The translations under genes and the position numbers were made by a program. The notes under the pieces were generated by a model. That model made no database searches. It was not told the origin of the DNA and saw nothing but the letters and a program-made list of their open reading frames with translations. From Patescibacteria group bacterium (lineage in GTDB: Bacteria > Patescibacteriota > Patescibacteriia > UBA9934): 64,000 nucleotides of DNA. How positions within the stretch are numbered: position 1 is the first letter of the stretch; every line of letters begins with the position of its first letter. Location: NCBI GenBank assembly GCA_041659765.1, contig JBAZXR010000001.1, positions 531,338 through 595,337 of the forward strand. The letters run 5' to 3'. Positions 1 to 62,243 of the stretch are shown in pieces.

Positions 1-226
1 GCCACGCATGGTAGCCACACGGTTATCAACCACATCGCACCAGTCCACGTTTGGCTTGCCGGTCACACCAATAGCGTTCAAGACAGCGTCAGGCTGGTAC
101 TTCTTAATCTCGGCCAAAGCATCCTCGCGACTTGAAATACGCTGATCAGAAAGAATCGCGTCATCTCCCCACGCACCCTTAGCGCGTGCGCCTAGGAAGC
201 CCTTACCCAAGATTAAAATCCTCATA
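1..226 (-). CDS. NAD-dependent epimerase/reductase, RmlD-like (dTDP-4-dehydrorhamnose reductase family). Partial: the C-terminus runs off the window. Start ATG at 224-226 overlaps the rfbB stop (ATGA).
   Basis: Reverse-strand translation MRILILGKGFLGARAKGAW...GKPNVDWCDVVDNRVAT. Rossmann GxxGxxG N-terminus; the PNVDWCE motif is typical of RmlD/NRS-ER reductases. Confidence 0.55.
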
Positions 227-3734: not shown

Positions 3735-5400
3735 GTGAGAATTTATACAGGGACTCTTCATGCATGGTTTCCACAAGCTCGATCTTGAGGCCAAGGGCTT
3801 TCAGTTTATCGCCATTCAGGTAGTCGAGGTCTGCCTGTGGGAACGTAATGCCAAAGTAATACGTTGGCACGTCTTTCACAAGTTCCGGCAGTGCAGCGTA
3901 AGTTTTATCATCGCGCAACGGAACAATTACTCGACGATACGGGAACAAATATTTGTCCGAACGATCAACTACGATCACCGATTCCGGCTCGGTCAAAGTC
4001 ATGATCCGCGCGCGTTTGCCAATGAACGAATCCATCGCGCGACGCGAGGCCAAGATGCCGTCGTGGCCGAAGAAGACGAGGTTTACATTCGCGGTGAGAC
4101 CGGCCAAGACGGCGAGGATGAGGACGAGGCGCGCAAGTACTCGAAGCAACCGTCGCGCACCCTGACCACCCTGAGACTCCCCCGTAGCATCCTCTTTGAA
4201 AGAGGGGGAATTCCCCAATACCCGCCAGAGTGACAACACGAAGTACGCGGCGAAGGGAATGGAGAGCGCGAAAATCGGTAGCCAATAACGGACGTGAGAA
4301 TTACCAATTGTCACCAAGTCGGTGTTTGGATTATCGAAAAAGTTCCAACTGCCATAGAATGCAAACAAAGAGCCTGCGACAAGAATCGAAATCACCGTCA
4401 ATGTTTTCCACGCTTTGTTTTTGTCGAATCTCCGCAGGACAAGGAGCAAGAAACCAAACACCGACGCGATCGTCATCCATGGATACAGCACGATGCCGTA
4501 GTTCCAAACATTGTTCATCACCGCGCGGGGATGAAAACCGAAAGGCGTCGCGGTAGGGGTCGACCCTTGCGTCGACCCTCCTTCGACAGCGATCGCAGGT
4601 GTAGTCGGTGGAATGTTGTACCCCGTCACCAAAGGAGATCCGTAGACCCAAGAATTCGAGGCACCGATAGCCAACCCCATGAGGCCTAACCCAAAAAGAA
4701 AGGACGCGATATTCCGCCAACCAATAATGTTGCGATAGGCGATAAGGAGGCCGAGAGCGATTGGCAAAACCCAGGCGGCTTCGCTCAACCGGAAGAAAAG
4801 TGCGGTGCCGACCATGATTCCCGAAAGCACGAACTCGAGCCGGCGGAATTCTCGAGTAAAGAGTGACCTTGTCCCGAACGGTCGGGCGACGGCAAAGAAC
4901 ACCGCAAAAATCAAGAAGTCGACAAACGCCACGTTGTGCATCATGACGCGCCCAGAAAAATACAAATAGGCGGGATGCGCCATTAGAAACAACGCCGATA
5001 GATCAGCTAATCCGTCATCCTCAAACACTTTCTGCAGGACGGCTCGAAAAGCCAAGACACCTAACAGGGCGAGCACTGGAGTTAATAAGAGTCCGCCGGC
5101 ATCGCCAAAGCCCATCATTAAGACACCGGCTAAAAGTGGCAGACCAAGAAAACTGCCGGGTACTAAAAATTCGCCCATCACCGCTACACTCCGCGGATGA
5201 ATGAGACCGCCAAGTTTTTCATTAAAGGTTTCGTGAACGGCCAAAGAACCAATGTCGGCAAACTGTTTAGCAAAAAAGAAGGCCGCATTTTCATCCGGGG
5301 AAACGAACACTCGCTCGCCGTAGGCGCTCAAGCACAAAGTCGAAACAAAAAAAGAAACAATTATCAGGCCCTTCAAAAAATCCTTTAAAAATCGGCTCAT
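3712..5400 (-). CDS. Polytopic membrane protein, possibly a GT-C fold glycosyltransferase (ArnT/PMT-like).
   Basis: 562 aa with many predicted TM helices and large loops, located in a sugar-nucleotide/glycosyltransferase neighbourhood. Function is inferred, not supported by a motif. Confidence 0.45.
   Translation of the reverse strand: MSRFLKDFLKGLIIVSFFVSTLCLSAYGERVFVSPDENAAFFFAKQFADIGSLAVHETFNEKLGGLIHPRSVAVMGEFLVPGSFLGLPLLAGVLMMGFGDAGGLLLTPVLALLGVLAFRAVLQKVFEDDGLADLSALFLMAHPAYLYFSGRVMMHNVAFVDFLIFAVFFAVARPFGTRSLFTREFRRLEFVLSGIMVGTALFFRLSEAAWVLPIALGLLIAYRNIIGWRNIASFLFGLGLMGLAIGASNSWVYGSPLVTGYNIPPTTPAIAVEGGSTQGSTPTATPFGFHPRAVMNNVWNYGIVLYPWMTIASVFGFLLLVLRRFDKNKAWKTLTVISILVAGSLFAFYGSWNFFDNPNTDLVTIGNSHVRYWLPIFALSIPFAAYFVLSLWRVLGNSPSFKEDATGESQGGQGARRLLRVLARLVLILAVLAGLTANVNLVFFGHDGILASRRAMDSFIGKRARIMTLTEPESVIVVDRSDKYLFPYRRVIVPLRDDKTYAALPELVKDVPTYYFGITFPQADLDYLNGDKLKALGLKIELVETMHEESLYKFSHEKVTAR
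4178..4216. repeat. Palindromic micro-element, family P3 (CCCCGTAGCATCCTCTTTGAAAGAGGGGGAA), lying in-frame inside the CDS at 3712..5400.
   Basis: Near-identical 33-39 bp copy at 10311..10349. Encodes SPSFKEDATGES on the minus strand. Confidence 0.8.
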
Positions 5401-6000: not shown

Positions 6001-6019
6001 ACAAGTACCATCATTTTAC

Positions 6020-7990
6020 ATGTTTACCCGCTTTCTTCAAGCCATCATTTCCGCCGGTGCCGCCCTGGCTGTCTTTAGCATTCTAGCCACCGGAATGTAT
6101 TATGTCATGCCGGTAACAACCATCGGCCTGATTGTGTGTGCGGTGGCCGGCTCGGCGATCGTCGCCGTCATCCTGAGGAGCTCCGCGACGAAGGATCTGA
6201 TTGGCAGTGTCATCCCGATAACGGAGGGATCAGAACGGTTACCAATCAGATCCTTCGCTACGCTCAGGATGACTGCATTACTTTCAGTCTCCCTCCTCTC
6301 GCTCGGCCTCTGGTGGCACGCGGTGCTCACACATCCCATTCTCGAATCCGTACGGTCGCCGTGGCTGGTTATCAATTCGGCGAATTTGCTGTGGCTGTTT
6401 ATCCCGGCGGTTTGTGCGGCGGTTTTATTGATAGGAGGACGCGAGGACGGGGCGAGCCCCGTCCGTACAGCCGCGGGGTTCGGTGTAATCGTAATCACGT
6501 TATTTTCCGCGTTGTCATTTGCCGCTGCGGCATATCCCCTCGGTTTCGGTTTTGATCCGTTTCTGCATCGAGCGACCATCCAACATATCGCTGAGCATGG
6601 GACGATCACGCCGAAGCCGCTCTACTACATTGGCGAATATGTGATCGAATTGTTTGCGATGAAGGTGCTCCATTTGCCACTCATGTTGGTCGACGTATTC
6701 TTGGTGCCGCTCTTGGCGGCGACGTTGATTCCGGCGGCGGTGTTTTTGCGGGCGATACGCCAGGGCGGGGCAAGCCCCGCCCCTACCGCGGCGATTTTAT
6801 TATTTCTACCTATCGCCGCATTTGTCCAAACCACACCGCAGGCGTTGGCGTTCGTTTTTACAACGGTCGCGATATTGATCACGCAAAATACAAAAACCGA
6901 CAGCGGGGTTAAAAACCCCGCCTTCCCGATAATCCCATCGATCTTTGCCGTTGCGGCGCTGACCGCGCATCCGATTGCCGGACTCCTCGCCGTCTTCTTC
7001 GTCGTTTTGAATTTCTTGGCCGATAAGAAACGCGCGTGGTTCATCTGGACGTCCGTCTTGGCGACATTCGCCCTTCCCTTTGCATTTATTGCGCAGTCGT
7101 TCAAAGCACATCAGCCTTTTGGCATTCAAATCCCAGGGCTTCACGAAATTGCAGCCCTGCCCCTGTCCTCATTCTTTGGCACGCATTTCAACGCCTGGGG
7201 CGACACGGCGTATTTGGTGATCGGGAACATGTTCCTCGTCACGGTGACGATCGGGATTTTCGGTGCATGGCGAATGCACAAGGGGGCGCCGCAAGGGGCG
7301 TCCGTACGATGGATTCCCTTGATTTGCGCGGGGATTGCGTTTTCGAACTTCTTGATCTTGGGATTATTCTTTGAGTTCCCTTTCTTAATTTCGTACGAAC
7401 GGACGGATTTTGCGGCGCGGATGCTCACCCTGACGGTGTTGTTTTTGATGCCGTATATGCCGTACGCGATGACGCGTGCGAAGGGCGGGGCAAGCCCCGC
7501 CCTTACAGCGCGACGCGCGTTTGGTGTCGCCATTGTCGGCGTTGTATTTGTATCGTCGGTGTACGGCGCGTTCCCACGGTACGACGCATATGCATCTTCA
7601 GCGGGGTTCAATGTGACAAAGGCGGACTTTGACGCCGTTAAGGCCATCGAAGAATACGCCGCCGGACGGGATTACGTCGTTCTTGCGAACCAGGCCACAT
7701 CGTCCGCGGCCATCTCGACTCTCGGTTTCAAAAAATATTATCACGGCGACATCTACTTCTACCCTATCCCCACTGGCGGCCAGCTGTACCAACTCTATCT
7801 CGCCATGGCTGACAAACCGCGTGAAGCGATCATCGACAAAGCTCGTGCACTCACCGGCGCCCAACTGGTCTTCTTCGTCATGGACGATTATTGGTGGGAC
7901 TCCAAACGCGTCGTGGAACAAACAAAAACCATCACGGACATCACCTGGACCTTCGGCGACCACGAGGTGATGGTGATGGTGTTTGAGTAG
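6020..7990 (+). CDS. Large integral membrane protein of unknown function (about 14+ TM helices). Carries four in-frame palindromic micro-elements.
   Basis: 656-aa ORF, strongly hydrophobic, with a soluble C-terminal region. Function unknown; possibly envelope biogenesis or a GT-C-like protein. Confidence 0.7.
   Translation: MFTRFLQAIISAGAALAVFSILATGMYYVMPVTTIGLIVCAVAGSAIVAVILRSSATKDLIGSVIPITEGSERLPIRSFATLRMTALLSVSLLSLGLWWHAVLTHPILESVRSPWLVINSANLLWLFIPAVCAAVLLIGGREDGASPVRTAAGFGVIVITLFSALSFAAAAYPLGFGFDPFLHRATIQHIAEHGTITPKPLYYIGEYVIELFAMKVLHLPLMLVDVFLVPLLAATLIPAAVFLRAIRQGGASPAPTAAILLFLPIAAFVQTTPQALAFVFTTVAILITQNTKTDSGVKNPAFPIIPSIFAVAALTAHPIAGLLAVFFVVLNFLADKKRAWFIWTSVLATFALPFAFIAQSFKAHQPFGIQIPGLHEIAALPLSSFFGTHFNAWGDTAYLVIGNMFLVTVTIGIFGAWRMHKGAPQGASVRWIPLICAGIAFSNFLILGLFFEFPFLISYERTDFAARMLTLTVLFLMPYMPYAMTRAKGGASPALTARRAFGVAIVGVVFVSSVYGAFPRYDAYASSAGFNVTKADFDAVKAIEEYAAGRDYVVLANQATSSAAISTLGFKKYYHGDIYFYPIPTGGQLYQLYLAMADKPREAIIDKARALTGAQLVFFVMDDYWWDSKRVVEQTKTITDITWTFGDHEVMVMVFE
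6446..6470. repeat. Palindromic micro-element, family P1 (GGACGGGGCGAGCCCCGTCCGTACA), in-frame in the CDS at 6020..7990.
   Basis: Perfect palindrome GGACGGGGC-GAGCCCCGTCC. Same core plus the GTCCGTACA flank occurs at 23330..23354. Encodes DGASPVRT. Confidence 0.8.
6764..6783. repeat. Palindromic micro-element, family P1 (GGGCGGGGCAAGCCCCGCCC), in-frame in the CDS at 6020..7990.
   Basis: 20-bp perfect palindrome, identical to the copy at 7484..7503. Encodes GGASPAPT. Confidence 0.85.
6904..6922. repeat. Palindromic micro-element, P2 variant (GCGGGGTTAAAAACCCCGC), in-frame in the CDS at 6020..7990.
   Basis: Same stem as the P2 copies at 14921 and 36941 (GCGGGGTTAATAACCCCGC). Encodes SGVKNPA. 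Confidence 0.7.
7484..7503. repeat. Palindromic micro-element, family P1 (GGGCGGGGCAAGCCCCGCCC), in-frame in the CDS at 6020..7990.
   Basis: Identical to the copy at 6764..6783. Encodes GGASPALT. Confidence 0.85.
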
Positions 7991-8066
7991 GATGGATTGG
8001 TCCTGATCAGGATCCATCCTGAGCGCGAGCGAAGGATCAGACCCTCCCCTCCACCTCAGGAGAGCT
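7991..8066. repeat. Degenerate copy of an intergenic MITE/REP-like element (unit TCCATCCTGAGCGCGAGCGAAGGATC). Overlaps the 3' end of the GIY-YIG gene.
   Basis: Shares the unit with 8431..8455 and, in inverted orientation, with 57283..57311. Also contains the palindrome TCCTGATCAGGA. Confidence 0.7.
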
Positions 8067-8358
8067 CGACGAGCTTCTCAAACAGGTCTTCCCACTTCGG
8101 ATTCTTCGAGGTAACGAGCTCAGCCTTCCTCGCTCGGTTCCATCCCTTCAATTGTTTCTCTCGAAATAATGCCGTGTCTCGATCTGGAGTAGTTTCAAAA
8201 TAGACGAGCTTCACACAGTTATTCTTACTTGCAAATCCAGGCACGAGTTTATCTTTATGTTGCTGAATCCGTTCCGGCAATTGCGTGCTCATCCCAATAT
8301 ACAAAACATTGTTCGTTGGGCTCGCCATGATGTAGACGCCACATGAATCGTCATTCAT
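8056..8358 (-). CDS. Small GIY-YIG nuclease domain protein (URI/YhbQ-like).
   Basis: N-terminal GVYIMASPTNNVLYIGMS (GIY...YIG) and a conserved Glu region in a 100-aa ORF. Flanked on both sides by copies of the palindromic element. Confidence 0.8.
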   Translation of the reverse strand: MNDDSCGVYIMASPTNNVLYIGMSTQLPERIQQHKDKLVPGFASKNNCVKLVYFETTPDRDTALFREKQLKGWNRARKAELVTSKNPKWEDLFEKLVELS

Positions 8359-8377
8359 ACAATGCTTGGAGGTGAAA

Positions 8378-8533
8378 GTCTGACTCTTCGCTCTCGCTCA
8401 GAGTGGGGACCATGATAAATTCTCAAGCATTCCATCCTGAGCCATGCGAAGGATCAAACTTTCACCGGTGAGGGTCGGACTCTTCGCGCTCGCTCAGAGT
8501 GGAGACCGGAATAATTCGCAAGCGATCCATCCT
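8378..8533. repeat. Composite MITE/REP-like palindromic element. Contains a half arm (8382..8406), a full ~73-bp hairpin unit (8431..8503) and a truncated arm (8524..8533).
   Basis: Arms TCCATCCTGAGCCATGCGAAGGATC and GGACTCTTCGCGCTCGCTCAGAGTGGA are mutual inverted repeats. Homologous to 57239..57311 and 7991..8066. Confidence 0.8.
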
Positions 8534-9761
8534 ACCGCCCCACAATCATTCTCTCTTTCCGGTGCTTGATGGCTTCTGCACAAACACGCTCTAGTCGCTC
8601 TGCGTACTTCGGCAGCGAATAGTCGGCGACTGTTTTACTAGTCTCGTCGCGGCGCTGGGCGAATTCGTCCTTGCGTTGATCTAGGATTGTGAGCGCGCGC
8701 AAGAAGTCGCCTCGGTCGCCGGGGATAAACAGGAAGCCGTTTTTACCTTCCTCCACCAGTTCGCCCACGCCGCCAATTCTCGAAGCCAGAATCGGCAAAC
8801 CAGCCTGGAGGCCTTCGTAAATAACCGTTGGAGAATTCTCGTAACACAGGCTCGGCACGACGAGTGCGTCAACAACTCCAAACACGTTCACAATCTCCCC
8901 CGGCGGCATGTAACCCAAGTAAGTGATGCGTTCGTTTTCGCTGGCGTGCTTCTCTGTCCACTTTCTGAGCACCCCGTCACCCGCAATCATGAGGCGCGCA
9001 TCAATCGGCAAGGTCGAAATAGCGTCGACCAAAAAGGCTAGACCCTTATGCTGGGCGAGCTGGCCCACGAACAAAAGTTTCAGCGGTCCGCCAGAACGGC
9101 CTTTCTTTGGCGAAATATCATAGGTCGGTGCCGGGTTAGGCATCACCTCAATGTTAGTACCCGTGAAAAAGCCGGACCGGCGATACATGCGCTCAAGATA
9201 ATGCGACGGCGAAATAACGACGTCCGGATTCTTAAATTTAGCGCGACAAAAAAGCTGGTACACCTTATAGAACGGTTTAATGAACCACGGCGTCTGCTCT
9301 TTACCGAACATGACGAGGCCGGAGGGAACGATAAGCTGCAAATCGTGAATCACGTGCACATGCGGAATCTTCATCTGACGCATGACCTTCGGAATAGACA
9401 GGCCGAGTCCTTTTAGGTTATGCGTAATGACCACGTCCGGCTGTTCATTAACCATAACCTTGCGCACCACCTCCGCTCCATGTCCAGAGAAGCCGTCTAT
9501 TAGATGCCAAAATAATCTGATGAGCCACGGATATTTATAATCGTTCAACGTGAAGTACAAATTGCGCGGATAAAAACGATAAACACGCTCAACCGTTGAG
9601 CGATCCAAAATAATTCCCCTCCCTTCAGAGCGCGGCTGGCCGGTAATCACAAACACGTCATGTCCACGAGCCAGGAGTTCCTGGACCGTGCGAACAATGA
9701 CCGTTTCAGCTCCCCCGCGGGCGTGGGGCGGATAGAGATTTGTAATGATTCCTATCTTCAT
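8532..9761 (-). CDS. Glycosyltransferase family 4 (GT4).
   Basis: 409 aa. N-terminal MKIGIITNLYPPHARGGAETV and a C-terminal GT4 (GT-B) EX7E-like region. Confidence 0.8.
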   Translation of the reverse strand: MKIGIITNLYPPHARGGAETVIVRTVQELLARGHDVFVITGQPRSEGRGIILDRSTVERVYRFYPRNLYFTLNDYKYPWLIRLFWHLIDGFSGHGAEVVRKVMVNEQPDVVITHNLKGLGLSIPKVMRQMKIPHVHVIHDLQLIVPSGLVMFGKEQTPWFIKPFYKVYQLFCRAKFKNPDVVISPSHYLERMYRRSGFFTGTNIEVMPNPAPTYDISPKKGRSGGPLKLLFVGQLAQHKGLAFLVDAISTLPIDARLMIAGDGVLRKWTEKHASENERITYLGYMPPGEIVNVFGVVDALVVPSLCYENSPTVIYEGLQAGLPILASRIGGVGELVEEGKNGFLFIPGDRGDFLRALTILDQRKDEFAQRRDETSKTVADYSLPKYAERLERVCAEAIKHRKERMIVGR

Positions 9762-10834
9762 ACCTTGAGTACTCCGTTATACGCCTGGAGCAATTGGCGT
9801 GCAATAGCCCCGCTGTCATACCTTTCCATAACACGTACGCGAGCGGCTGAGCCCATGATTACTGCGTCTTCTGGGCGATCGGCGAACTTCTGAAGCTGGT
9901 ACGCCAAATCATCTACGTCACCAGGTTTGGCGAGGTAGCCCGTACGGCCTTTTTCGACGAGTGTCCTGACGCCAGGAAGGTCGCTGACAACCGAAGGCAG
10001 GCCTGAAGCAGCGGCCTCGAGGGTGACGAGACCGAAGGCTTCCCCGCCGTTAATGCTCGGCAGTACGTGCACATCTGCAGAGCGATAGACGTTCGGCAGT
10101 TCTGTGTCTGACACGCGACCGAGAAATTTCACGCGGTCGGCGATCATCAAGTCAGAGGCGAGGCGCTCGTAGAATGCCTTGAGGTCGCCATCGCCGGCAA
10201 TCACGAGTCGGGCACTCGGCGCAAGTTTAGCGAAGGCACGCAGAAGAATATCCACGCCTTTGAAGTCGTGCGCTTTGTCGAGGCCGCCGACGAAGAGGTA
10301 GACCACCGACTTCCCCGTAGCCCCCTCTTTGAAAGAGGGGGAACACGCCACACCCGGCGCGAAGCGCGTGCTGTCCACGCCGAAAGGCATTTCGGTCAGG
10401 CCGTCGTGAGAGAGACCGGAGGCTTCTGCGTACTCAAGCGAGCTCACGAAAATCTTTTTGGCGATGAGAAAAATAAATGGTTCGATGAACCAACGATGCA
10501 AGGTAAAAATAACGTTGCGCCAATCCTTTGTCACGGCCTTCATGTGATACGTGAGTACAAGAGGCGTTTTGTGAATTATCGACGCGAGCACAGCAAACAC
10601 GTCCATGCCGTAACACGGATAGTGAACGTGGATCACGTCGAAGCCTTTCAGCTTCATGACAAGTGACGGCATCAACGCTGCGTTGCCGTACGCAAAGAGT
10701 GACTTGGTCGTGCTCGGCTCAAAAACGACCACATCATGGCCAAGGGCTTTAAGAGCGTTGGTCTGGGCTTCGGCAACATGTCCAATACCCCCCTTATAAG
10801 GAGGGAAAACTGCGGAAACGACAGCAATTCGCAT
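9758..10834 (-). CDS. Glycosyltransferase family 4 (GT4). Start probably MRIAVVS; carries an in-frame P3 palindromic element.
   Basis: MRIAVVSAVFPPYKGGIGHV...; the C-terminal GT4 fold is retained. ATGA overlap with the upstream GT4 gene. Confidence 0.75.
   Translation of the reverse strand: MRIAVVSAVFPPYKGGIGHVAEAQTNALKALGHDVVVFEPSTTKSLFAYGNAALMPSLVMKLKGFDVIHVHYPCYGMDVFAVLASIIHKTPLVLTYHMKAVTKDWRNVIFTLHRWFIEPFIFLIAKKIFVSSLEYAEASGLSHDGLTEMPFGVDSTRFAPGVACSPSFKEGATGKSVVYLFVGGLDKAHDFKGVDILLRAFAKLAPSARLVIAGDGDLKAFYERLASDLMIADRVKFLGRVSDTELPNVYRSADVHVLPSINGGEAFGLVTLEAAASGLPSVVSDLPGVRTLVEKGRTGYLAKPGDVDDLAYQLQKFADRPEDAVIMGSAARVRVMERYDSGAIARQLLQAYNGVLKV
10311..10349. repeat. Palindromic micro-element, family P3 (CCCCGTAGCCCCCTCTTTGAAAGAGGGGGAA), in-frame inside the GT4 CDS.
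   Basis: Near-identical to 4178..4216. Encodes SPSFKEGATGKS. Confidence 0.8.
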
Positions 10835-10841
10835 AGATGCC

Positions 10842-11189
10842 CTATTCGTTGGGCTTTTTGACGTTCTCAATGGCTACCGCCCGCACAAGCGATGTCATCT
10901 CCGCGGACAGCTTCTGCTGGGCAATCATGAGCCGATACACGGTGAACGTAAGGACCACAATGGCAGAGTAGACAATGACGTCTGCGCCGCGGCCGATGCC
11001 AACAAAGTTAGCAACAATGTTCGCTAAGTTCGGCACGAGCGCGACCGCGATAACGACGATCCACAAAAGCGTGAAGGCGATGGCCCAATATTTGGAAGCT
11101 TCTTTTTTGGAATACTGCTTCCACGTTTTATAAATGGCGTACGCAGCGAATGAAACAAGGATGATTTGGAAAATCATATTAGCCAACAA
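10842..11189 (-). CDS. DUF2304-family small membrane protein (partner of a GT2 glycosyltransferase).
   Basis: About 3 TM helices; GIGRGADVIVY...YRLMIAQQKLSAEMTSLVRAVAIEN matches the DUF2304 pattern. Lies immediately downstream of, and overlaps, the GT2 gene. Confidence 0.65.
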   Translation of the reverse strand: MLANMIFQIILVSFAAYAIYKTWKQYSKKEASKYWAIAFTLLWIVVIAVALVPNLANIVANFVGIGRGADVIVYSAIVVLTFTVYRLMIAQQKLSAEMTSLVRAVAIENVKKPNE

Positions 11190-12897: not shown

Positions 12898-14979
12898 TTA
12901 CCAAGCTCCAAGTGAAGTGCCCAAAGAGCCGATAAGTTTAGAGCCAAGTGTGCCCATTATATTCCCATGCGAAGTAAAAACCTGTACTTCACCGGCGCCA
13001 TGTTCTGGGGCCACCACAATATCCTCTTTACCGTCTACATCTATGTCTGAAACGGCTACCACCGCGCCGGTTTTAGAAGATTGATCACCCACCCAGAACT
13101 GTCCCCATACCGCACCAATCTTGTTAAAGATGCGGATATTGGAGGCCCCTGGCGCACGCGGGGCGGTCACAATCTCGTCTCGATCGTCGCCGTCAAAGTC
13201 GCCGGACGACAGTGAGATGCCATAAGTCATGGTTGGCGCATATGCCAAGAAATCCACCAAAGCTTTTCCATCATTATCATACACGGCTACACGGGGGATT
13301 CCAGACAAGGCGCCAAACACCATTTCTTGATCATAGTCCTCATCAATGTCAGCCACCGTGGCGGTGAGCGGAGTGTCGGCGGCGAACCCGACCACCGGAA
13401 ACCGGAATTTCTCTACACCATCTTGGCCGAACACCACAGCATCAGTGCTGACTCCGGCCCCAACCACGGCTACAATGTCATCCGAAAAATCCCCGTCCAC
13501 ATCACCCAGGGCCACAGAGACTCCTTGTCTTGTTTTCTCATCAAAAGCAAAGAACGAACGAATGAGTGCGCCAGTAGCGGTGAAAATTCGTATCTGTGGA
13601 CCGCCGCCTTTTCCAGCCGAAGCAATAACCTCAGGAACACCATCGCCCGTCAGATCAGCCAGGCCCACCCGAACACCGCCCAGAAAAGTTGGCGCAAAAA
13701 CATAGAACTCTGCATATGGCGTACCGTCAGCCTTATATACTCTGACGTTCGGCGGCTCGCCAGGCGCTGCGCCGAGGGCAATAAACGAATATGCCGAATC
13801 TCCAGTCAAACCGCCACTACTCGCCGCTGGCGGCTTAGTGGTTGAAGGAATTGGCGCAACTGGGAGTGGTCCGGCCGGGGCGGTGCCCGCCAATGATTGA
13901 GCCACGGATAGCGCGCGAGCGATATTCAATCGGCCGACGCCTAGCGAACCCGGACCAGATAAGGTCACTTTCACCGGGTCAACCGACAGCTTGATGGCAG
14001 TCCTGACTTGATCAACCGTCAGCGTTGGGAAAGCTGAAAGCATCAAGGCGGCGGCTCCGGCCACCATTGGGCTAGCGGCGGACGTGCCATCCCAAGAAAG
14101 CTGGGTACCAAATAATCCAGTGTCTCCGTCACTCAAAGTTAAACCCTGAATATTCGTGCCGGGCGCGCTTAAATCCGCACAGGCGTTTCCAAAATTAGTG
14201 AATTCAGTTTCAGAATCACTCTCGTCAGTAGCGGCCACGCCGATCACCCAATCCTCCGTTTCTGATCTGAAACAGGCCGGGTAGACCGGCGAGCTGTTCA
14301 CATCCCTTCCATCATTCCCGAGCGCGGCCGTAATGGTCACCCCGGCATGATAAGCATCAATCACCGCCTGCCGCAAAGCCGAACCAGACACGTCCCCCAC
14401 AAAACTGAGATTAATTACTTTCGCCCCATTTTTCACCGCGTAACGAATAGCGCTGGTCGCCTCCTCTTCTCCCCCGCCGCCTTGTTCATCTAAAATTCTG
14501 AGCGGCATGATACGAACGTGCCAATTAATTCCCGCGTAACCAATACTATTATTCGTGGCTGCTCCAATAATGCCGGAGATCAGAGTTCCGTGCGATGTAG
14601 CAAGCGCTGAAGAATTCGCGTCCGGAATAGTCCCCTTGGGAACCGGAGAATTGTCATGATCCACAAAATCCCAACCTTCGACATCATCAACATATCCGTT
14701 CCGATCATCATCCAGGCCATTGCCCGGAATCTCATTAGTGTTCTTCCAAAGATTGTGGACTAAATCTGGATGATCAAGATCCACCCCAGTATCAAGAACG
14801 GCCACGATCACCGAGCCATCACCGACCGACGTATCCCAAGCGGCCTCAACATTAATCAGGCGCAAGTACCACTGCTCAGCAAGATATGGATCGTTCGGGG
14901 TTTTTGCCAAGACGCACAAAGGCGGGGTTAATAACCCCGCCATCACAAAACAGATCGCGACGTTCCCAAGAAAGCGCAT
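12898..14979 (-). CDS. Secreted subtilisin-like (S8) serine protease with C-terminal FG-GAP/VCBS-like repeats.
   Basis: Catalytic triad blocks DTGVDLDHPDL, HGTLISGIIGA and GTSAASPMVAGAAAL. C-terminal repeats of the DxDGDGxxD type (LADLTGDGVPEVI etc.). Signal peptide present. Confidence 0.85.
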   Translation of the reverse strand: MRFLGNVAICFVMAGLLTPPLCVLAKTPNDPYLAEQWYLRLINVEAAWDTSVGDGSVIVAVLDTGVDLDHPDLVHNLWKNTNEIPGNGLDDDRNGYVDDVEGWDFVDHDNSPVPKGTIPDANSSALATSHGTLISGIIGAATNNSIGYAGINWHVRIMPLRILDEQGGGGEEEATSAIRYAVKNGAKVINLSFVGDVSGSALRQAVIDAYHAGVTITAALGNDGRDVNSSPVYPACFRSETEDWVIGVAATDESDSETEFTNFGNACADLSAPGTNIQGLTLSDGDTGLFGTQLSWDGTSAASPMVAGAAALMLSAFPTLTVDQVRTAIKLSVDPVKVTLSGPGSLGVGRLNIARALSVAQSLAGTAPAGPLPVAPIPSTTKPPAASSGGLTGDSAYSFIALGAAPGEPPNVRVYKADGTPYAEFYVFAPTFLGGVRVGLADLTGDGVPEVIASAGKGGGPQIRIFTATGALIRSFFAFDEKTRQGVSVALGDVDGDFSDDIVAVVGAGVSTDAVVFGQDGVEKFRFPVVGFAADTPLTATVADIDEDYDQEMVFGALSGIPRVAVYDNDGKALVDFLAYAPTMTYGISLSSGDFDGDDRDEIVTAPRAPGASNIRIFNKIGAVWGQFWVGDQSSKTGAVVAVSDIDVDGKEDIVVAPEHGAGEVQVFTSHGNIMGTLGSKLIGSLGTSLGAW
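14921..14946. repeat. Palindromic micro-element, family P2 (GGCGGGGTTAATAACCCCGCCATCAC), lying in-frame within the signal peptide of the S8 protease.
   Basis: Identical core plus ATCAC flank at 36941..36965. Encodes MAGLLTPP. Confidence 0.85.
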
Positions 14980-15803: not shown

Positions 15804-18764
15804 TCACTGTACGGTAGCTGCCCCGATCCACGCTTCGGTGAACCCGACCAGGTCAGTGGCCGTGACGCCACCGGCGCAGAGGACGAACCCTTCGGTCGTA
15901 TTCCCAGCGGTCAGCCAGGTCACCACCTGCCGATCCGTACCGGCAAGCACGGTCGACGTCGAGTAGAGCTCTGTAGCGGCCACATGATCAACCACGTAGT
16001 CAGACAACCGATACACTCGGAGGATCTGTCCGTTGGTCGACGACTGGTTAGCGTAGTCGAACGTCATGGCGTACTTGTTCCCTACGCCCGCGGTAAAGGT
16101 GTACGCACGACACTCGTCCGCAATACCGGCCGCACCACCAGTGTTGTCAAAGTACGCAGCGTTCCGCGTACTCCCGAGCGTGGTGGTGAAAGCGAGCGGT
16201 CCAGTAGGTCCCCAAGTGGAGGGTCGACCGAGCGTGTACGAGTACGTCGTCCAACTTGAGAGCGCCCCGCACCCCATCGTCACGTCACACGAGTTGCCAA
16301 TGAGGTTCGGTCCCGTGAACCGAGCGACGAGCGCGCTGCCGGAAACTGCAAAGGTGGTCACTCCGTCCGTGTGGGCAAAGGTACCGTCACAGTTGTCATC
16401 AGACGCCGTCTTGGACGACTCCGCCACGCCCGGGTGGACGAACGGCGCACGGTCGTCACAGTCACCGGCGGCCGAAGCGTAGCCAACGGGCGCACTGCAC
16501 GCTTGCTTGGTTGGCGCAGATGTTCCGTACCCATCAGCGTCAAGGTCCTGGAAGAATGTCGGCATAACGCCTTCGTCAATCCCGGACCCGCAGTTGTTGT
16601 CTACCCCGTCGCAGACCTCTACGGCCCCGGGGTTCACGAACTTGTCAGTGTCATTGCAGTCCGTCGAGACGCTGGCGAACCCGGCCGGAGCCGAGCAAGC
16701 AGCAATAGTCGACGTCGGAATTCCGTACGCGTCTCCGTCACCATCCTGGTAGTAGGTGTTCTTCACGCCTTCGTCAACTGCAGTATCGCAGTCATCGTCG
16801 GCCCCGTTGCACGCCTCAGCGGCCACGGGATTGATCAGGCTCTTCGTGTCGTCGCAGTCCGTGCTGTTGGCTGCGAAGCCGACGGGCAGGCTGCAGGCGA
16901 GCGTGGTGACGAGCACGTTGCCGTACTGATCACCGTCTGTATCCGCGAAGTAAGTGTTCTTCACGCCTTCGTCAATTCCGCCTTCGCAGTCGTCGTCCAC
17001 CCCGTTACAGACTTCCGTCTTCCCGGGATTTACGCCGCTCTTGGCGTCATCGCAGTCAGTCGCGTTGAGCACATAACCCGCGGGCGGGCTGCACTGACTG
17101 ACGGATTTGGAGCTGTCCCCATAACCGTCATTGTCACTGTCCCGATAGTACGTGGCACTGCCAGTGGCGCCGTTATCCACGGAGCCGTCGCAGTTGTCGT
17201 CCTTACCGTTGCAGACTTCCGTTCCGGCAGGGCTGACGAGCGCAGTTGCGTCATCGCAGTCCGTGGAGGCGGCTACATACCCGGCCGGAGCCGAGCACGC
17301 TTTGGTCGAGGTGACTCCCCCGTACCCATCTTTGTCGCCATCCAAGTACCACGTCTTTGCGTCAGCAGCGTTGTCGTCGATCTTGCCATCGCAGTTATCG
17401 TCGAGACTGTTGCACACCTCCGTGGCGCTCGGGTTCACAGACTTGCTCGCGTCGTTGCAGTCGCTCTCATTGGCCACGTACCCGGCGGGCGGCGTGCAGG
17501 CTTCCGTAGAAGTCCCGCCGCCAAACCCGTCACCGTCCGTGTCCTTGTAGAACGTCAGCAAGACGCCTTGATCGATGACGCCGTCACAGTCGTCATCACG
17601 GTCGTTGCAGACTTCGCTCTCGTCCGGGTTAACGGCCGGACGGGCGTCATCGCAATCACCGTTCACGAGCGTGTACCCGGCCGGAGCCGAGCACGCCTGT
17701 TTGAACACGTCAGAACCGTAGTTGTCCTTGTCCGTGTCCTGGTAGAACGCGATGAGCGTCCCTTCGTCGATCCCATCCGCGCAGTTGTTGTCCACCCCAT
17801 CGCACACCTCTGTGGCGGCAGGGTTGACCTCAAACGCAGAGTCGTCGCACTCGAGACAAGCAAAGAAGCCGTCTCCGTCACCGTCCTCTGCGCCGTAAAA
17901 GCCGTCGCAGTTGAGGTCCTCCGGGTCCGTGCAACTCTCGGCCGCACCCGGATAGACTGCGGCATTCCCGTCATCACAATCCTTACTCTGGGCTGCGTAC
18001 CCTTCCGGCATCTCACAGGCCAGAATCTGACCAGACTTGCTGTTCGTACCAACTCCGTCCTGGTCAGCGTCCTTGTAGAACTTGTCCTGACCGATCACGG
18101 AAGCGTCTTCGTCGTCCACGAGCAAGTCGCAGTCGTTATCAATGAGGTCGCAGACCTCCTGTGCGACCGGATTGACGGTGGGGTTGTTGTCATCGCAGTC
18201 AACAAAGCCATCGAACCCGTCTTCGTCATCGTCTTTGATCTCCACCTCCGTCGTCTTGCCGTCGCAGTTCCGGTCGACACCGTCGCCAGGAAAGTCAGGA
18301 ATACTCGGGTTGATGTCAGGATCCGTGTCATCGCAGTCATCGGCGTTGTACACGAGTCCCTCAACTCCGTAGACCTCACAGCCCCAGAGCTCGGCACTGC
18401 CGTCTCCAAAACCATCACTATCTTTGTCCGCGTAGCGCGGCAAACGCTGATCGCTGCCCGCGTCTCCCTCCTCGCAGTCATTATCAATCCCGTCACACGG
18501 AATTTCCTCGACTGCCGGGAGGTCATTCTCCTCATCGGTATCACCATCCCAAACGTTCGGGTGAACCAACGCGTCATTGTCGTCGCAGTCATCAATTTCC
18601 ACGAAGAATCCATCGCCGTCCGCATCAACTAGCGGAATGTGATCCGGCAGGATCAACGCGCAACCAGAGAACATGAACGAAGCCATAACCAAACAGTTGC
18701 TGTAACGCATTGAAGCACCCCTAAAAGCTGTGGCTTGATAGCCGTTTTCGTAACTCAAGGCCAA
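15804..18764 (-). CDS. Large secreted Cys-rich protein with about 13 tandem MopE-like putative metal-binding repeats (CxDxDxxVNPxAxEVCNGxDDDCDGxxDEG). Lipoprotein-like signal peptide; the likely start is at an internal Met near 18710.
   Basis: Strongly periodic repeats are visible in both DNA and protein. The antisense 753-aa ORF is an artefact of the GC-rich repeats. Confidence 0.8.
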   Translation of the reverse strand: MALSYENGYQATAFRGASMRYSNCLVMASFMFSGCALILPDHIPLVDADGDGFFVEIDDCDDNDALVHPNVWDGDTDEENDLPAVEEIPCDGIDNDCEEGDAGSDQRLPRYADKDSDGFGDGSAELWGCEVYGVEGLVYNADDCDDTDPDINPSIPDFPGDGVDRNCDGKTTEVEIKDDDEDGFDGFVDCDDNNPTVNPVAQEVCDLIDNDCDLLVDDEDASVIGQDKFYKDADQDGVGTNSKSGQILACEMPEGYAAQSKDCDDGNAAVYPGAAESCTDPEDLNCDGFYGAEDGDGDGFFACLECDDSAFEVNPAATEVCDGVDNNCADGIDEGTLIAFYQDTDKDNYGSDVFKQACSAPAGYTLVNGDCDDARPAVNPDESEVCNDRDDDCDGVIDQGVLLTFYKDTDGDGFGGGTSTEACTPPAGYVANESDCNDASKSVNPSATEVCNSLDDNCDGKIDDNAADAKTWYLDGDKDGYGGVTSTKACSAPAGYVAASTDCDDATALVSPAGTEVCNGKDDNCDGSVDNGATGSATYYRDSDNDGYGDSSKSVSQCSPPAGYVLNATDCDDAKSGVNPGKTEVCNGVDDDCEGGIDEGVKNTYFADTDGDQYGNVLVTTLACSLPVGFAANSTDCDDTKSLINPVAAEACNGADDDCDTAVDEGVKNTYYQDGDGDAYGIPTSTIAACSAPAGFASVSTDCNDTDKFVNPGAVEVCDGVDNNCGSGIDEGVMPTFFQDLDADGYGTSAPTKQACSAPVGYASAAGDCDDRAPFVHPGVAESSKTASDDNCDGTFAHTDGVTTFAVSGSALVARFTGPNLIGNSCDVTMGCGALSSWTTYSYTLGRPSTWGPTGPLAFTTTLGSTRNAAYFDNTGGAAGIADECRAYTFTAGVGNKYAMTFDYANQSSTNGQILRVYRLSDYVVDHVAATELYSTSTVLAGTDRQVVTWLTAGNTTEGFVLCAGGVTATDLVGFTEAWIGAATVQ

Positions 18765-23154: not shown

Positions 23155-23330
23155 AAAGTTACAGAAACCATTTTCCCCTTTTAAGGGGTAAAGAGATAGA
23201 GGTTTGCACGGGCCTGCGGCCCCGACCTTTGAAGCGTGCTTACCCGGGATGCGTTGAACGCAGTCCCTTTCGGGAGGGCATCGTGCGATGCCCTGCCTGA
23301 AGGAAATGCCTTGCTCTATTCTGAGACGGG
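23155..23330 (-). other. Structured leader / intergenic region containing five consecutive GC-rich stem-loops.
   Basis: Palindromes CCCCTTTTAAGGGG (23177..23190), GGGCCTGCGGCCC, GCGTTCAACGC, GGGCATCGTGCGATGCCC (23276..23293) and the P1 element (23330..23349). Confidence 0.5.
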
Positions 23331-34049: not shown

Positions 34050-34108
34050 CACCCCACCCTCTCACCGGCACGAGCCGGAACGTTGAGAGAACGGGGTGTT
34101 GTTTTTTT
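34050..34108. terminator. Nested-hairpin rho-independent terminator, family T copy 1. Bidirectional; overlaps the C39 gene stop.
   Basis: ACACCCCaccCTCTCAccggcacgagccggAAcgtTGAGAGaacGGGGTGTtgttttttt. Confidence 0.7.
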
Positions 34109-62136: not shown

Positions 62137-62243
62137 ATTTCATCAAACATTTTACCACATCCCGGGGTTGTTCGGCATCCGTTAACGTGATACGATGGAC
62201 GCCGAACGAGGGTCGACACCTGGGTCGACCCCTACCTCAAAAT

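What the first reader, a model, noticed from the sequence alone, without database searches (positions are those of the whole stretch)
6020..7990. One membrane-protein gene is a hotspot carrying four palindromic micro-elements
The 656-aa polytopic protein contains three P1 copies and one P2 variant. Each appears to fall in a short hydrophilic stretch between hydrophobic segments (…GGREDGASPVRTAAGFG…, …RQGGASPAPTAAILL…, …KTDSGVKNPAFPIIP…, …RAKGGASPALTARRAF…). Such clustering suggests either selection for tolerated positions (loops) or local hopping or gene-conversion of the elements. The protein itself is uncharacterised, and it sits beside phospholipid and glycan genes.
Basis: partly seen in the sequence, partly recalled or inferred. 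Interest (0 to 1): 0.55.

Follow-up and report, generated by a model that had tools for sequence, protein, structure and literature searches.

The report
Hairpin repeats inserted in membrane-protein loops
A membrane sugar-transferase gene of an ultra-small (Patescibacteria) bacterium carries six small palindromic "selfish DNA" hairpins, all read in frame as extra residues in short unconserved loops, most of them probably cytoplasmic. This is a clear new example of a phenomenon already known from Rickettsia and other bacteria.

Summary
Gene 6020..7990 (+) carries three 24-nt GC hairpins ending in CTAC/TTAC/GTAC (P1) at 6445, 6763 and 7483, and one untagged hairpin (P2) at 6903.

An AlphaFold model (pLDDT 90) shows a GT-C-type glycosyltransferase fold. 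Every element lies in a short inter-helix loop that is poorly conserved, and all but the 248-252 loop show a clear local confidence dip. Five of these six loops are clearly K/R-rich, so probably cytoplasmic.

Syntenic orthologues (69-76% identity) have the same loops empty, or filled by a different hairpin family. In the close clade this gene holds 2.0 hairpins/kb against 0.23/kb in its flanks.

P1 has the anatomy of a GTAG-tagged REP. Its exact 24-mer recurs across phyla and sits just upstream of Y1 (RAYT-type) transposase genes in two of them. The composite palindrome resembles the hairpin repeats linked to Ssn-type GIY-YIG nucleases, and a GIY-YIG gene flanked by the same unit lies next door.

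Best reading: non-autonomous hairpin elements that survive only where 8-12 extra residues are harmless, and that are shuffled between alleles by recombination.

The parts
6020..7990 (+). Host gene: 656-aa polytopic membrane protein with a GT-C-type glycosyltransferase-like fold and a C-terminal soluble domain. No Pfam or NCBIfam family.
   Evidence: ORF. No family hit. AF2 model. Foldseek best hits are AftA 8if8 (E 5e-4, TM 0.44), ArnT and PglB. There are 206 homologues, and the named ones among the 120 listed are Patescibacteria or unclassified 'bacterium' MAGs.
6167..6273 (+). 107-nt composite palindrome read in frame (aa 50-86). It is an inverted pair of GTCAT-CCTGAG..CGAAGG-ATC units (6170-6197 + and 6249-6270 -), resembling Ssn-related (SRM/NTS-like) hairpin repeats.
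   Evidence: RNA fold -54.5 kcal/mol, z -6.8. Lies in loop 54-77 with a pLDDT dip to 61-74. For comparison see PMC11893778.
6445..6468 (+). P1a: 24-nt hairpin GGACGGGGCgaGCCCCGTCC with a GTAC tail, encoding (E)DGASPVRT in loop 139-146.
   Evidence: -18.6 kcal/mol. Identical in orthologue L002 and decayed in L004. Absent in L001 and L003.
6763..6786 (+). P1b: 24-nt hairpin GGGCGGGGCaaGCCCCGCCC with a CTAC tail, encoding (Q)GGASPAPT in loop 248-252. This is the exact cross-phylum 24-mer.
   Evidence: -21.6 kcal/mol. The same site holds P3 in L004, P2 in L003, and is empty in L001.
6903..6921 (+). P2: untagged hairpin GCGGGGTTaaaAACCCCGC followed by CTTC, encoding SGVKNPAF in loop 288-303. It looks like a terminator on the antisense strand.
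   Evidence: -14.7 kcal/mol, z -3.7. Terminator-like scan hit on the minus strand, 6922..6902. The same site holds P3 in L002, L004 and L125, and is empty in L001 and L003.
7284..7307 (+). Fifth micro-element, not in the finding: 24-nt hairpin GGGCGCC-gcaagg-GGCGTCC with a GTAC tail and one G.U (G-T) pair, encoding G(A)PQGASV in loop 423-431.
   Evidence: Fold (-15.3 kcal/mol). Orthologues carry other GTAC-tagged hairpins at the same site: L004 GGGCCGAT.., L125 GGGCGATG.., L126 GGACGAGGC...
7483..7506 (+). P1b: 24-nt hairpin GGGCGGGGCaaGCCCCGCCC with a TTAC tail (the stem extends to 11 bp, 7481-7504), encoding (K)GGASPALT in loop 485-492.
   Evidence: -27 kcal/mol, z -5.1. The same site holds P3 in another reading frame in L004, P4 in L003, and other hairpins in L001, L125, L126 and L127.
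4553..4578 (-). P3 copy (GGGTCGAC-N6-GTCGACCC + CTAC on the coding strand) in frame in the neighbouring 562-aa membrane protein (..GGSTQGSTPT..).
10317..10341 (-). P4 copy (CCCCCTCTTTcAAAGAGGGGG + CTAC on the coding strand) inside the GT4 glycosyltransferase gene 9758..10870. P4-type hairpins also lie in the orthologous GT4 gene in L003 and L004; whether at the same position was not checked.
23330..23353 (+). Fourth P1 copy of the window (P1a type). It lies antisense in the last ~10 codons of the DUF5667 gene 23316..24476 (-).
62210..62235 (+). P3 copy (GGGTCGACacctggGTCGACCC+CTAC), ending 8 nt upstream of the start codon of a gyrB-like gene (about 62244).
14921..14941 (-). P2 copy inside the N-terminal signal-peptide-like segment of the subtilase gene (..FVMAGLLTP..).
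36941..36959 (-). P2 copy inside the lipoprotein-type signal-peptide-like segment of the cyclophilin gene (..FVMAGLLTPLFLGAGC..).
34694..34712 (-). P2 variant inside the C39-like peptidase gene 34107..34931.
8016..8455 (-). Small GIY-YIG nuclease gene (8056..8358, 100 aa) bracketed by two copies of the ATCCTGAG..CGAAGGATC unit (8016-8038 and 8434-8455). This is an Ssn/SRM-like module and the probable partner of the composite palindrome in the host gene.
   Evidence: Homologues L186, L187 and L188 have the same gene-plus-flanking-hairpin layout; L184 has degenerate units upstream only. Literature: PMC11893778.
57286..57308 (-). Solo copy of the ATCCTGAG..CGAAGGATC unit.

Best explanation
The gene is riddled with small non-autonomous hairpin repeats of at least three kinds.

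(a) P1, the 7284 element and the related P3/P4 copies are 24-26-nt GC-rich palindromes with an unpaired GTAG, GTAA or GTAC tag on the non-coding strand. This is the anatomy of GTAG-tagged REP elements, which are thought to be moved as single-stranded hairpins by RAYT-type Y1 (HUH) transposases acting in trans.

(b) P2 is an untagged, terminator-like hairpin with no known mobiliser.

(c) The 107-nt palindrome is an inverted pair of Ssn-type hairpin repeats. A candidate cognate GIY-YIG ssDNA nuclease is encoded next door.

This genome appears densely coding, so most insertions would land in genes. Only those survive that keep the frame, contain no stop codon, and fall where 8-12 extra small residues (Gly, Ala, Ser, Pro, Thr) are harmless.

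In this GT-C-type enzyme the harmless places are the short, unconserved connector loops, most of them K/R-rich and probably cytoplasmic. Most conserved loops lie on the opposite, K/R-poor face. The gene therefore accumulates elements. The same loops are hit or re-filled by different families in different lineages.

Element-bearing loop segments are then exchanged between related alleles by short-tract homologous recombination.

Shown here: hairpins, tags, copy families, loop location, presence/absence and family turnover at orthologous sites, enrichment, mosaicism, the cross-phylum spread of P1, and its adjacency to Y1 transposase genes elsewhere.

Inferred: that a RAYT (or any enzyme) moves them in this genome, that they are neutral for the protein, and the cytoplasmic assignment of the loops.
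For: Anatomy. The 24-nt units have 7-11-bp perfect stems, 2-6-nt loops and CTAC/TTAC/GTAC tails. This matches the definition of GTAG REPs (stems 6-13 bp, short loops, degenerate tags, several families per genome, intragenic copies known) in PMC3733652.

P1 distribution. The exact 24-mer GGGCGGGGCAAGCCCCGCCCCTAC occurs in at least 120 loci of Acidobacteriota, Planctomycetota, Chloroflexota, Oscillospiraceae, Armatimonadota and others.

Link to Y1 transposases:
- P1 lies 27 nt upstream of a Y1_Tnp gene in L051 (Terriglobia) and 41 nt upstream of a homologous one in L024 (Chloroflexota). The L051 and L078 genes are Pfam-confirmed; L024 matches by tblastn and HMM.
- RAYT-like Y1_Tnp genes flanked on both sides by their own hairpin exist in Patescibacteria (L147, L192, L195). 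Some members of this family are labelled RayT by JGI.

Loop location: AF2 and hydropathy. The element loops are poorly conserved (0.09-0.26), and most are K/R-rich.

Insertions and turnover. The codon alignment of five syntenic orthologues shows empty sites and P1, P2, P3 or P4 at identical loops. A wider census maps tagged hairpins to aa ~78, 146-150, 250, 298, 337, 378, 425 and 490.

Enrichment. There are 32 hairpins in 15.7 kb of this gene against 25 in 109.5 kb of flanks in the close clade (Poisson P = 8e-12, not corrected for shared ancestry).

Frame fits environment. P2 reads SGVKNPAF in a loop but MAGLLTP inside two signal peptides.

Mosaicism. The pattern of WIN resembling L002 or L001 gives 149 runs against 236 expected (0 of 20,000 permutations). 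Every L002-like block in the membrane part (up to aa ~500) contains an element site.
Against: - No Y1 transposase was found in the 64-kb window or in about 590 kb of related Patescibacteria loci, except L147, whose hairpin is different. None of the 120 best RAYT-like hits lies on the 897-kb source contig. The mobiliser of P1 in this genome is therefore unproven.
- P2 has no tag and no known partner.
- Shared P1 copies are better conserved between WIN and L002 than their flanks. Identical codons: 25/28 in the elements, 83/131 in the flanks of the same recombination blocks (P = 0.007). Pure neutrality does not predict this.
- Nearly all intragenic tagged copies have the CTAC tail on the coding strand (22 vs 4 by an automated census that includes some non-family hairpins; about 11 vs 2 independent sites). 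Stop-codon avoidance alone does not explain this (expected about 60:40; my estimate P ~0.06).
- One tagged element (aa ~378 in L002 and L004) sits in a K/R-poor loop.
Confidence: 0.65

Rival explanations
1. Reusable landing pads. The loops are specific re-insertion or replacement sites. A resident hairpin, or its target sequence, attracts hairpin-specific ssDNA enzymes (RAYT or Ssn type). One family then replaces another in situ like a cassette, and the resulting breaks stimulate local gene conversion. On this view the clustering reflects targeting, not only tolerance.
For: - P1 (WIN) and P3 (L004) at site 2 share the same right junction..CCCCTAC-N-GCGGCGATTTTA.
- Sites 2, 3, 4 and 425 each carry three to five different families across eight orthologues. 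P3-like elements are also present in the outgroup L125/L126, so replacement is more parsimonious than repeated de novo hits.
- Recombination blocks are centred on the element sites.
- REPs are known targets for other mobile elements, and Ssn cleaves ssDNA next to its repeats and alters recombination (PMC3733652, PMC11893778).
Against: - The loops are only 2-12 residues long in element-free homologues, so 'same site' is expected from tolerance alone.
- Empty alleles (L001, L003) carry no conserved target motif or CTAC tag.
- At 70-78% identity the junctions cannot be defined to the nucleotide.
- No enzyme has been identified in this genome for the GTAG type.
Confidence: 0.15
2. Functional nucleic-acid structures. 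The hairpins are kept because a stable stem-loop at these points is useful. They could act as translational pause sites between transmembrane helices that aid co-translational membrane insertion, as mRNA stabilisers, or as terminators of antisense transcription.
For: - Different sequences with the same structure occur at the same positions in orthologues.
- There is excess synonymous conservation of shared copies.
- The 7284 element has a G.U pair that pairs only on the sense strand.
- There is a coding-strand orientation bias.
- P2 is terminator-like on the antisense strand.
Against: - Most of the more distant orthologues examined at DNA level have no GC hairpin in this gene (about 37 of 48 loci have zero; a few, such as L136, have several). 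The close orthologues L001 and L003 lack hairpins at sites 1 and 3.
- The same sequences occur in unrelated genes, in a 5'UTR and across phyla with variable flanks.
- No Rfam family matches.
- No expression or ribosome data are available.
Confidence: 0.1
3. Not mobile DNA at all. The segments would be ordinary fast-evolving loop sequence or a protein-level motif (GGASPxxT) that happens to be palindromic, or else assembly artefacts.
For: The peptides are loop-friendly, and three of them share one reading frame.
Against: - The identity is at the nucleotide level and is palindromic.
- The same 24-mer occurs in other genes, in other frames and orientations, and in over 100 loci of other phyla.
- Shuffles expect about 0 matches.
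- Independent assemblies from NCBI, Logan, ENA and JGI carry the same or related elements at the same sites.
Confidence: 0.03

Closest known systems
GTAG-tagged REP elements and their RAYT (Y1/HUH) transposases (Di Nocera et al. 2013, PMC3733652; REPIN/RAYT work of Bertels & Rainey, PMC3116915)
   Same: - 20-40-nt GC-rich palindrome with a 6-13-bp stem, a short loop and an unpaired GTAG-like tag at one end.
- Several families coexist in one genome.
- Copies are sometimes inside genes.
- The exact P1 24-mer lies just upstream of Y1_Tnp genes in two other phyla.
   Different: - Here most copies are intragenic and in frame rather than extragenic.
- Copies are singletons rather than REPIN doublets.
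- Tags are often degenerate (GTAA, GTAC).
- No RAYT has been located in this genome.
- The host is a ~0.9-Mb Patescibacteria genome, a group for which my literature searches found no report of REPs.
Rickettsia palindromic elements (RPE) inserted in frame in protein genes (Ogata et al. 2000, cited from my own knowledge and via PMC3733652)
   Same: Selfish palindromic repeats read through as extra peptide segments in functional proteins, at structurally permissive surface positions, with presence/absence among orthologues.
   Different: RPEs are ~100-150 bp and lineage-specific. The micro-elements here are 19-26 nt (8-9 codons) and belong to several unrelated families. Only the 107-nt composite is of RPE size. 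Sequence similarity to RPEs was not tested.
Ssn GIY-YIG ssDNA nucleases and their SRM/NTS hairpin repeats (Chenal et al. 2025, PMC11893778)
   Same: A ~100-aa single-domain GIY-YIG gene flanked by copies of an oriented hairpin repeat with a GTCAT-like 5' flank and an ATC 3' flank. The repeat is dispersed elsewhere in the genome. The same layout is seen in three homologous loci (L186-L188); a fourth, L184, has degenerate units upstream only.
   Different: The published degenerate SRM search pattern does not match the units here. cd10448 membership could not be tested. Here an inverted pair of the repeat is translated inside a gene.
Intrinsic-terminator-like dispersed hairpins
   Same: P2 is a GC stem with an A/T-rich loop. 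It is followed by a T-rich run on the coding strand in some copies, and in the host gene on the antisense strand.
   Different: All four P2 copies in the window lie inside coding sequence and are translated. No termination has been shown.

Membership tests
GTAG-tagged REP | Short (20-40 nt) palindrome, stem 6-13 bp, short loop | tested here: met
   P1 stems are 9-11 bp with a 2-nt loop. The 7284 element has a 7-bp stem and a 6-nt loop. P3 has an 8-bp stem and a 6-nt loop.
GTAG-tagged REP | Unpaired GTAG (or degenerate GYAG/GTRG/GTMG) tag at one end | tested here: inconclusive
   A canonical GTAG tag is present at 6763, 4557, 10321 and 62210. The tag is GTAA at 7483, and GTAC at 6445, 7284 and 23330 (GTAC is not among the listed degeneracies). 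P2 has no tag.
GTAG-tagged REP | Multi-copy and dispersed in the genome | tested here: inconclusive
   The 64-kb window holds 4 P1, 2 P3, 1 P4 and the 7284 element. The rest of the 897-kb contig could not be read.
GTAG-tagged REP | Cognate RAYT gene flanked by the repeat (REPtron) in the same genome | not testable with these tools
   None was found in the window. P1 lies next to Y1_Tnp genes in L051 and L024, which are other phyla. Patescibacteria REPtron-like loci (L147, L192, L195) use other hairpins.
GTAG-tagged REP | Predominantly extragenic location | tested here: not met
   Of the tagged copies in the window, all but one (62210, in a 5'UTR) are inside ORFs. Intragenic REPs are nevertheless documented exceptions.
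Rickettsia-type palindromic elements (RPE) | In-frame insertion in genes for functional proteins, absent from orthologues | tested here: met
Rickettsia-type palindromic elements (RPE) | Length ~100-150 bp and sequence membership in RPE-1..8 | tested here: not met
   The micro-elements are 19-26 nt. Length was tested, but sequence similarity to RPEs was not.
Ssn/SRM module (for the 6167-6273 palindrome and the gene 8056..8358) | Single-domain ~100-aa GIY-YIG protein with hairpin repeats flanking its gene | tested here: met
   PF01541 hit on a 100-aa protein. Units lie at 8016-8038 and 8434-8455. The layout recurs in L186, L187 and L188, and in degenerate upstream-only form in L184.
Ssn/SRM module (for the 6167-6273 palindrome and the gene 8056..8358) | Repeat matches the published degenerate SRM pattern HGTCWYN(0-2)YYVSBRHN(0-5)WNVSBRGN(0-2)RNCYNB | tested here: not met
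   No match anywhere in the window on either strand. The units share only the GTCAT/CCAT 5' flank, the stem-loop and the ATC 3' flank.
Ssn/SRM module (for the 6167-6273 palindrome and the gene 8056..8358) | Protein belongs to CDD cd10448; site-specific ssDNA cleavage next to the repeat | not testable with these tools
   No CDD library and no biochemistry are available here.
GT-C glycosyltransferase (host protein) | Polytopic GT-C fold with conserved acidic residue(s) in an outer loop and a C-terminal soluble domain | tested here: inconclusive
   Foldseek top hits are AftA, ArnT and PglB, but TM is only 0.36-0.46. There is an invariant GFDPFLHR motif (D179) in the conserved K/R-poor loop 172-220. 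No Pfam or NCBIfam match.

The most novel reading that the evidence does not exclude
The connector loops of this gene act as reusable 'landing pads', where hairpin elements of different families replace one another. Hairpin-specific ssDNA nucleases (RAYT-type for the GTAG hairpins, Ssn-type GIY-YIG for the larger palindrome) cut at these sites and drive short-tract gene conversion. The elements would then actively make this envelope-glycan enzyme a recombination mosaic, rather than merely being tolerated in it.
Probability: 0.15. Interest if true: 0.7.

Novelty: new member of a known kind. Interest (0 to 1): 0.45.

Why it matters
It gives a clean, structurally resolved example of how selfish hairpin DNA is filtered by protein architecture in a densely coding genome. 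The elements end up in the dispensable connector loops of a membrane enzyme. The same loops are re-used across lineages.

It extends GTAG-type REP-like and Ssn-type hairpin repeats to Patescibacteria, where I found no description of them.

It shows that one 24-nt hairpin is shared verbatim across distant phyla.

For annotation and protein modelling, recognising these 8-12-residue inserts avoids mistaking them for lineage-specific motifs.

The link between element sites and recombination blocks offers a testable handle on whether such repeats shape gene mosaicism.

Tried and rejected
- **Rfam:** scans of the whole window (gathering threshold) and of 5900-8600 (E <= 1) gave nothing meaningful.
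- **Protein families:** Pfam and NCBIfam have no family for the host protein.
- **RAYT search in held DNA:** There was no hit in the window. The only Patescibacteria hit was L147.
- **RAYT on the source contig:** I looked for a hit whose 'longest contig' is 897,219 bp. None of the 120 listed hits qualified.
- **Published SRM pattern:** no match to the ATCCTGAG..CGAAGGATC units.
- **Literature:** full-text searches for the P1 sequence and its peptides, and for REP/RAYT together with Patescibacteria, found nothing. The P1 sequence is not in the held supplements of PMC3733652.
- **Population variants:** the 90% identity cluster of the protein has a single member, so no near-identical alleles were available.
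- **P1 orientation in other phyla:** 34 sense against 41 antisense among copies inside long open frames. The ORF calls are unreliable in those GC-rich genomes, so this is only a weak control.
- **Synonymous conservation as evidence of selection:** I first read the excess conservation of shared P1 copies as selection on the hairpin. Part of it is explained by the recombination-block ancestry. A smaller excess remains.
- **14921 and 36941 as intergenic terminators:** rejected. Both are read through as part of predicted signal peptides.
Full report
**1. Observation**

The ORF 6020..7990 (+) encodes 656 aa and contains the four quoted peptides. Pattern searches and a census of perfect GC-rich hairpins place the elements as follows:
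- P1 at 6445-6468 (GGACGGGGCgaGCCCCGTCC+GTAC)
- P1 at 6763-6786 (GGGCGGGGCaaGCCCCGCCC+CTAC)
- P1 at 7483-7506 (same core +TTAC)
- P2 at 6903-6921 (GCGGGGTTaaaAACCCCGC)

Each P1 is exactly 24 nt, or 8 codons.

Chance expectation is about 0.04 and 0.01 matches per window. The gene has 4 such hairpins against 0.55 in dinucleotide shuffles. It holds 4 of the window's 21 hairpins in 3% of its length (P = 0.0035-0.0007, post hoc).

Two further elements in the gene were not in the finding:
- A 24-nt GTAC-tagged hairpin with one G.U pair at 7284-7307.
- A 107-nt palindrome at 6167-6273, made of two inverted ATCCTGAG..CGAAGGATC units.

**2. The host protein and where the elements sit**

The protein has no Pfam or NCBIfam family. 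It has 206 homologues, and the named ones among those listed are Patescibacteria or unclassified MAGs. The query itself is a hypothetical protein of a Patescibacteria MAG on an 897-kb contig.

An AlphaFold2 model built on 116 sequences is confident (pLDDT 90.1, pTM 0.93). Its best structural matches are the GT-C enzymes AftA, ArnT and PglB (TM 0.36-0.46). The neighbouring genes are a CDP-alcohol phosphatidyltransferase and GT4 glycosyltransferases.

All six elements fall in coil between helices: 54-77, 139-146, 248-252, 288-303, 423-431 and 485-492. Five of these coincide with clear local pLDDT dips; the 248-252 loop shows only a slight one (80-85).

I then compared loops across the 109 homologues outside the close clade:
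- Five of the six element-bearing loops are clearly K/R-rich (0.14-0.52 K+R per residue; 288-303 is 0.19, the big-element loop 54-77 only 0.14), and all are poorly conserved (majority fraction 0.09-0.26).
- Most alternating loops are K/R-poor (0.00-0.07) and conserved (0.45-0.81). They include the loop with the invariant GFDPFLHR motif.

By the positive-inside rule (established knowledge) the K/R-rich element loops are probably cytoplasmic connectors on the face opposite most conserved loops.

**3. Orthologues**

Four syntenic orthologues (69-76% aa identity, from independent assemblies) were codon-aligned.

| Site | WIN | L002 | L004 | L003 | L001 |
|---|---|---|---|---|---|
| 1 | P1 | P1 | P1 | empty | empty |
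| 2 | P1 | P1 | P3 | P2 | empty (27-nt gap) |
| 3 | P2 | P3 | P3 | empty | empty |
| 4 | P1 | P1 | P3, other frame | P4 | other hairpins |

P3 at site 2 of L004 is GGGTCGACgccaagGTCGACCC+CTAC. L002 and L004 also carry elements at a further loop (aa ~337) that is empty in the window. L001 and L003 carry GGGTCGGTCacaGACCGACCC+CTAC where the window has the large palindrome.

With 52 more orthologous loci from metagenomes, tagged hairpins map to WIN aa ~78, 146-150, 250, 298, 337, 378, 425 and 490. Seven of these eight sites are the K/R-rich loops. The exception (~378, in L002 and L004) lies in the variable part of a K/R-poor loop.

In the close clade (eight loci) the gene holds 32 GC hairpins in 15.7 kb (2.0/kb). 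Its flanks hold 25 in 109.5 kb (0.23/kb). The Poisson P is 8e-12, not corrected for shared ancestry. Most of the more distant orthologues have none.

**4. What the elements are**

On the non-coding strand P1, P3, P4 and the 7284 element read GTAG/GTAA/GTAC followed by a GC palindrome. This is the anatomy of the GTAG-tagged REP superfamily. That superfamily is described with stems of 6-13 bp, short loops, degenerate tags, several families per genome and documented intragenic copies (PMC3733652).

The hosts are Acidobacteriota, Planctomycetota, Chloroflexota, Oscillospiraceae, Armatimonadota and others.

Among these loci:
- P1 lies 27 nt upstream of a Y1_Tnp gene in L051 (Terriglobia). That gene also carries a P1 in frame.
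- P1 lies 41 nt upstream of a homologous gene in L024 (Chloroflexota).
- A third Y1_Tnp gene lies ~580 nt from P1 in L078.

No such gene is in the window. RAYT-like Y1_Tnp genes are nevertheless common in Patescibacteria (Wolfebacteria, Uhrbacteria, Falkowbacteria and Paceibacterota; some are labelled RayT). Three such genes I fetched are bracketed on both sides by their own hairpin: L147, L192 and L195. L147's gene sits in the very slot next to the orthologue of this gene.

P2 has no tag. It is read as SGVKNPAF in the loop here but as MAGLLTP inside two signal peptides. This fits a filter in which frame and environment must be compatible.

The large palindrome is a different system. Its unit brackets the adjacent 100-aa GIY-YIG gene (8016-8038 and 8434-8455). 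Homologous GIY-YIG genes elsewhere are bracketed by the same or a compensated unit (L186-L188), or carry degenerate units upstream only (L184). This is the layout described for Ssn ssDNA nucleases and their SRM/NTS repeats (PMC11893778). The published degenerate SRM pattern does not match the units here.

**5. Dynamics**

The gene is a recombination mosaic. At 470 informative sites the window sequence alternates between L002-like and L001-like blocks, giving 149 runs against 236 expected (0 of 20,000 permutations). Every L002-like block in the membrane part (up to aa ~500) contains an element site: aa 3-62, 136-168, 231-305, 422-439 and 476-496.

Shared P1 copies are better conserved than the rest of the gene:
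- 25/28 identical codons among identical residues in the elements
- 83/131 in the flanks of the same blocks (P = 0.007)
- 158/323 elsewhere

So part, but not all, of their conservation reflects recent common ancestry of the blocks.

Nearly all intragenic tagged copies have the CTAC tail on the coding strand, whichever DNA strand the gene is on. The clear exceptions are an antisense P1 in the last ten codons of gene 23316..24476 and one copy in L127. Counting independent sites (about 11 vs 2), the bias is suggestive only.

**6. Interpretation**

The best-supported account is that these are non-autonomous hairpin repeats: REP-like, Ssn-type and one untagged family. They persist only where an in-frame insert of 8-12 small residues is harmless. 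In this GT-C-type enzyme that means the connector loops, most of them probably cytoplasmic. Element-bearing loop segments are then exchanged between alleles by recombination.

Mobilisation of the GTAG type by a RAYT is inferred by analogy and from adjacency in other phyla. It is not shown for this genome.

Two less likely readings are not excluded:
- Targeted re-use of occupied sites ('landing pads').
- A structural role of the hairpins in the mRNA.

Chance, a protein motif and assembly artefact are excluded.

**7. Novelty**

In-frame palindromic repeats in proteins (Rickettsia RPEs), intragenic GTAG REPs and Ssn/SRM modules are all known. What is new here:
- The host group (I found no report for Patescibacteria).
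- The resolution of the pattern: most element sites lie in one class of loop, with turnover of families at identical loops.
- The cross-phylum identity of the P1 24-mer.
- The coincidence of element sites with recombination blocks.

I class it as a new member of a known kind, of moderate interest.

Noticed in passing
window 8016-8510 (gene 8056..8358 -); L184, L186, L187, L188: A 100-aa GIY-YIG gene is bracketed by ATCCTGAG..CGAAGGATC hairpin units. Two copies of a stem-compensated variant, GACTCTTCGC[GT]CTCGCTCAGAGTG (~8383-8406 and ~8478-8501), lie upstream. Homologues in other genomes, including a gammaproteobacterium, mostly show the same gene-plus-flanking-hairpin layout. It fits the Ssn/SRM system published in 2025, although the published SRM pattern does not match. 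Many homologues sit on contigs of 0.5-2 kb, as expected for repeats.
   Followed up: partly
L147 3429-4251; window 7990-8532; L002 3828-4736; L003 3278-4189: The slot between the GT-C-like gene and the GT4 gene is variable. It holds a GIY-YIG module in the window. In L147 it holds a Y1_Tnp (RAYT-like) gene flanked by two copies of a 44-nt palindrome. In L002 and L003 it holds an unannotated ~302-aa ORF. In L004 it holds nothing.
   Followed up: partly
window 6020-7990 compared with L001 and L002: The gene is a fine-scale recombination mosaic with blocks of ~20-110 codons. The middle third (aa 313-420) is ~86-92% identical in DNA to L001, but the element-bearing loops are L002-like.
   Followed up: yes
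window 14915-14950 and 36935-36970 (minus strand): Two unrelated secreted proteins, a subtilase and a lipoprotein cyclophilin, share a ~26-nt identical stretch GTGATGGCGGGGTTATTAACCCCGC inside their signal peptides (FVMAGLLTP). This is a P2 hairpin translated as the hydrophobic core.
   Followed up: partly
L051 1771-2486 (Terriglobia): A RAYT-like Y1_Tnp gene carries a P1 hairpin in frame (..VGAGLAPP..), just after its HUH motif. A second GC-rich segment (..GEASLAPT) follows. Another P1 lies 27 nt upstream of its start. The homologue in L024 has a frameshift or insertion at the same point.
   Followed up: partly
window 62210-62260: A P3 hairpin ends 8 nt upstream of the start codon of a gyrB-like gene (..[24 protein letters not shown]..). 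It would overlap any ribosome-binding site. This gene runs off the end of the window.
   Followed up: no
window 16001-18000: A 2-kb stretch has 61% G+C against ~52% elsewhere. It lies inside a 986-aa ORF (15804..18764 -) with a long overlapping ORF on the opposite strand (16371..18632 +).
   Followed up: no
window 23275-23294: A further perfect hairpin, AGGGCATCGtgCGATGCCCT, begins 22 nt after the stop of gene 23316..24476 (-). It follows the antisense P1 copy and may be a terminator.
   Followed up: no
L189 (Falkowbacteria) about 1040-1190: An inverted pair of SRM-like units (GTCATTCTGAGG..CGAAGAATC / ..GTTCAGAATGAC) lies upstream of a RAYT-like Y1_Tnp gene. The two repeat systems therefore co-occur at one locus.
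   Followed up: no
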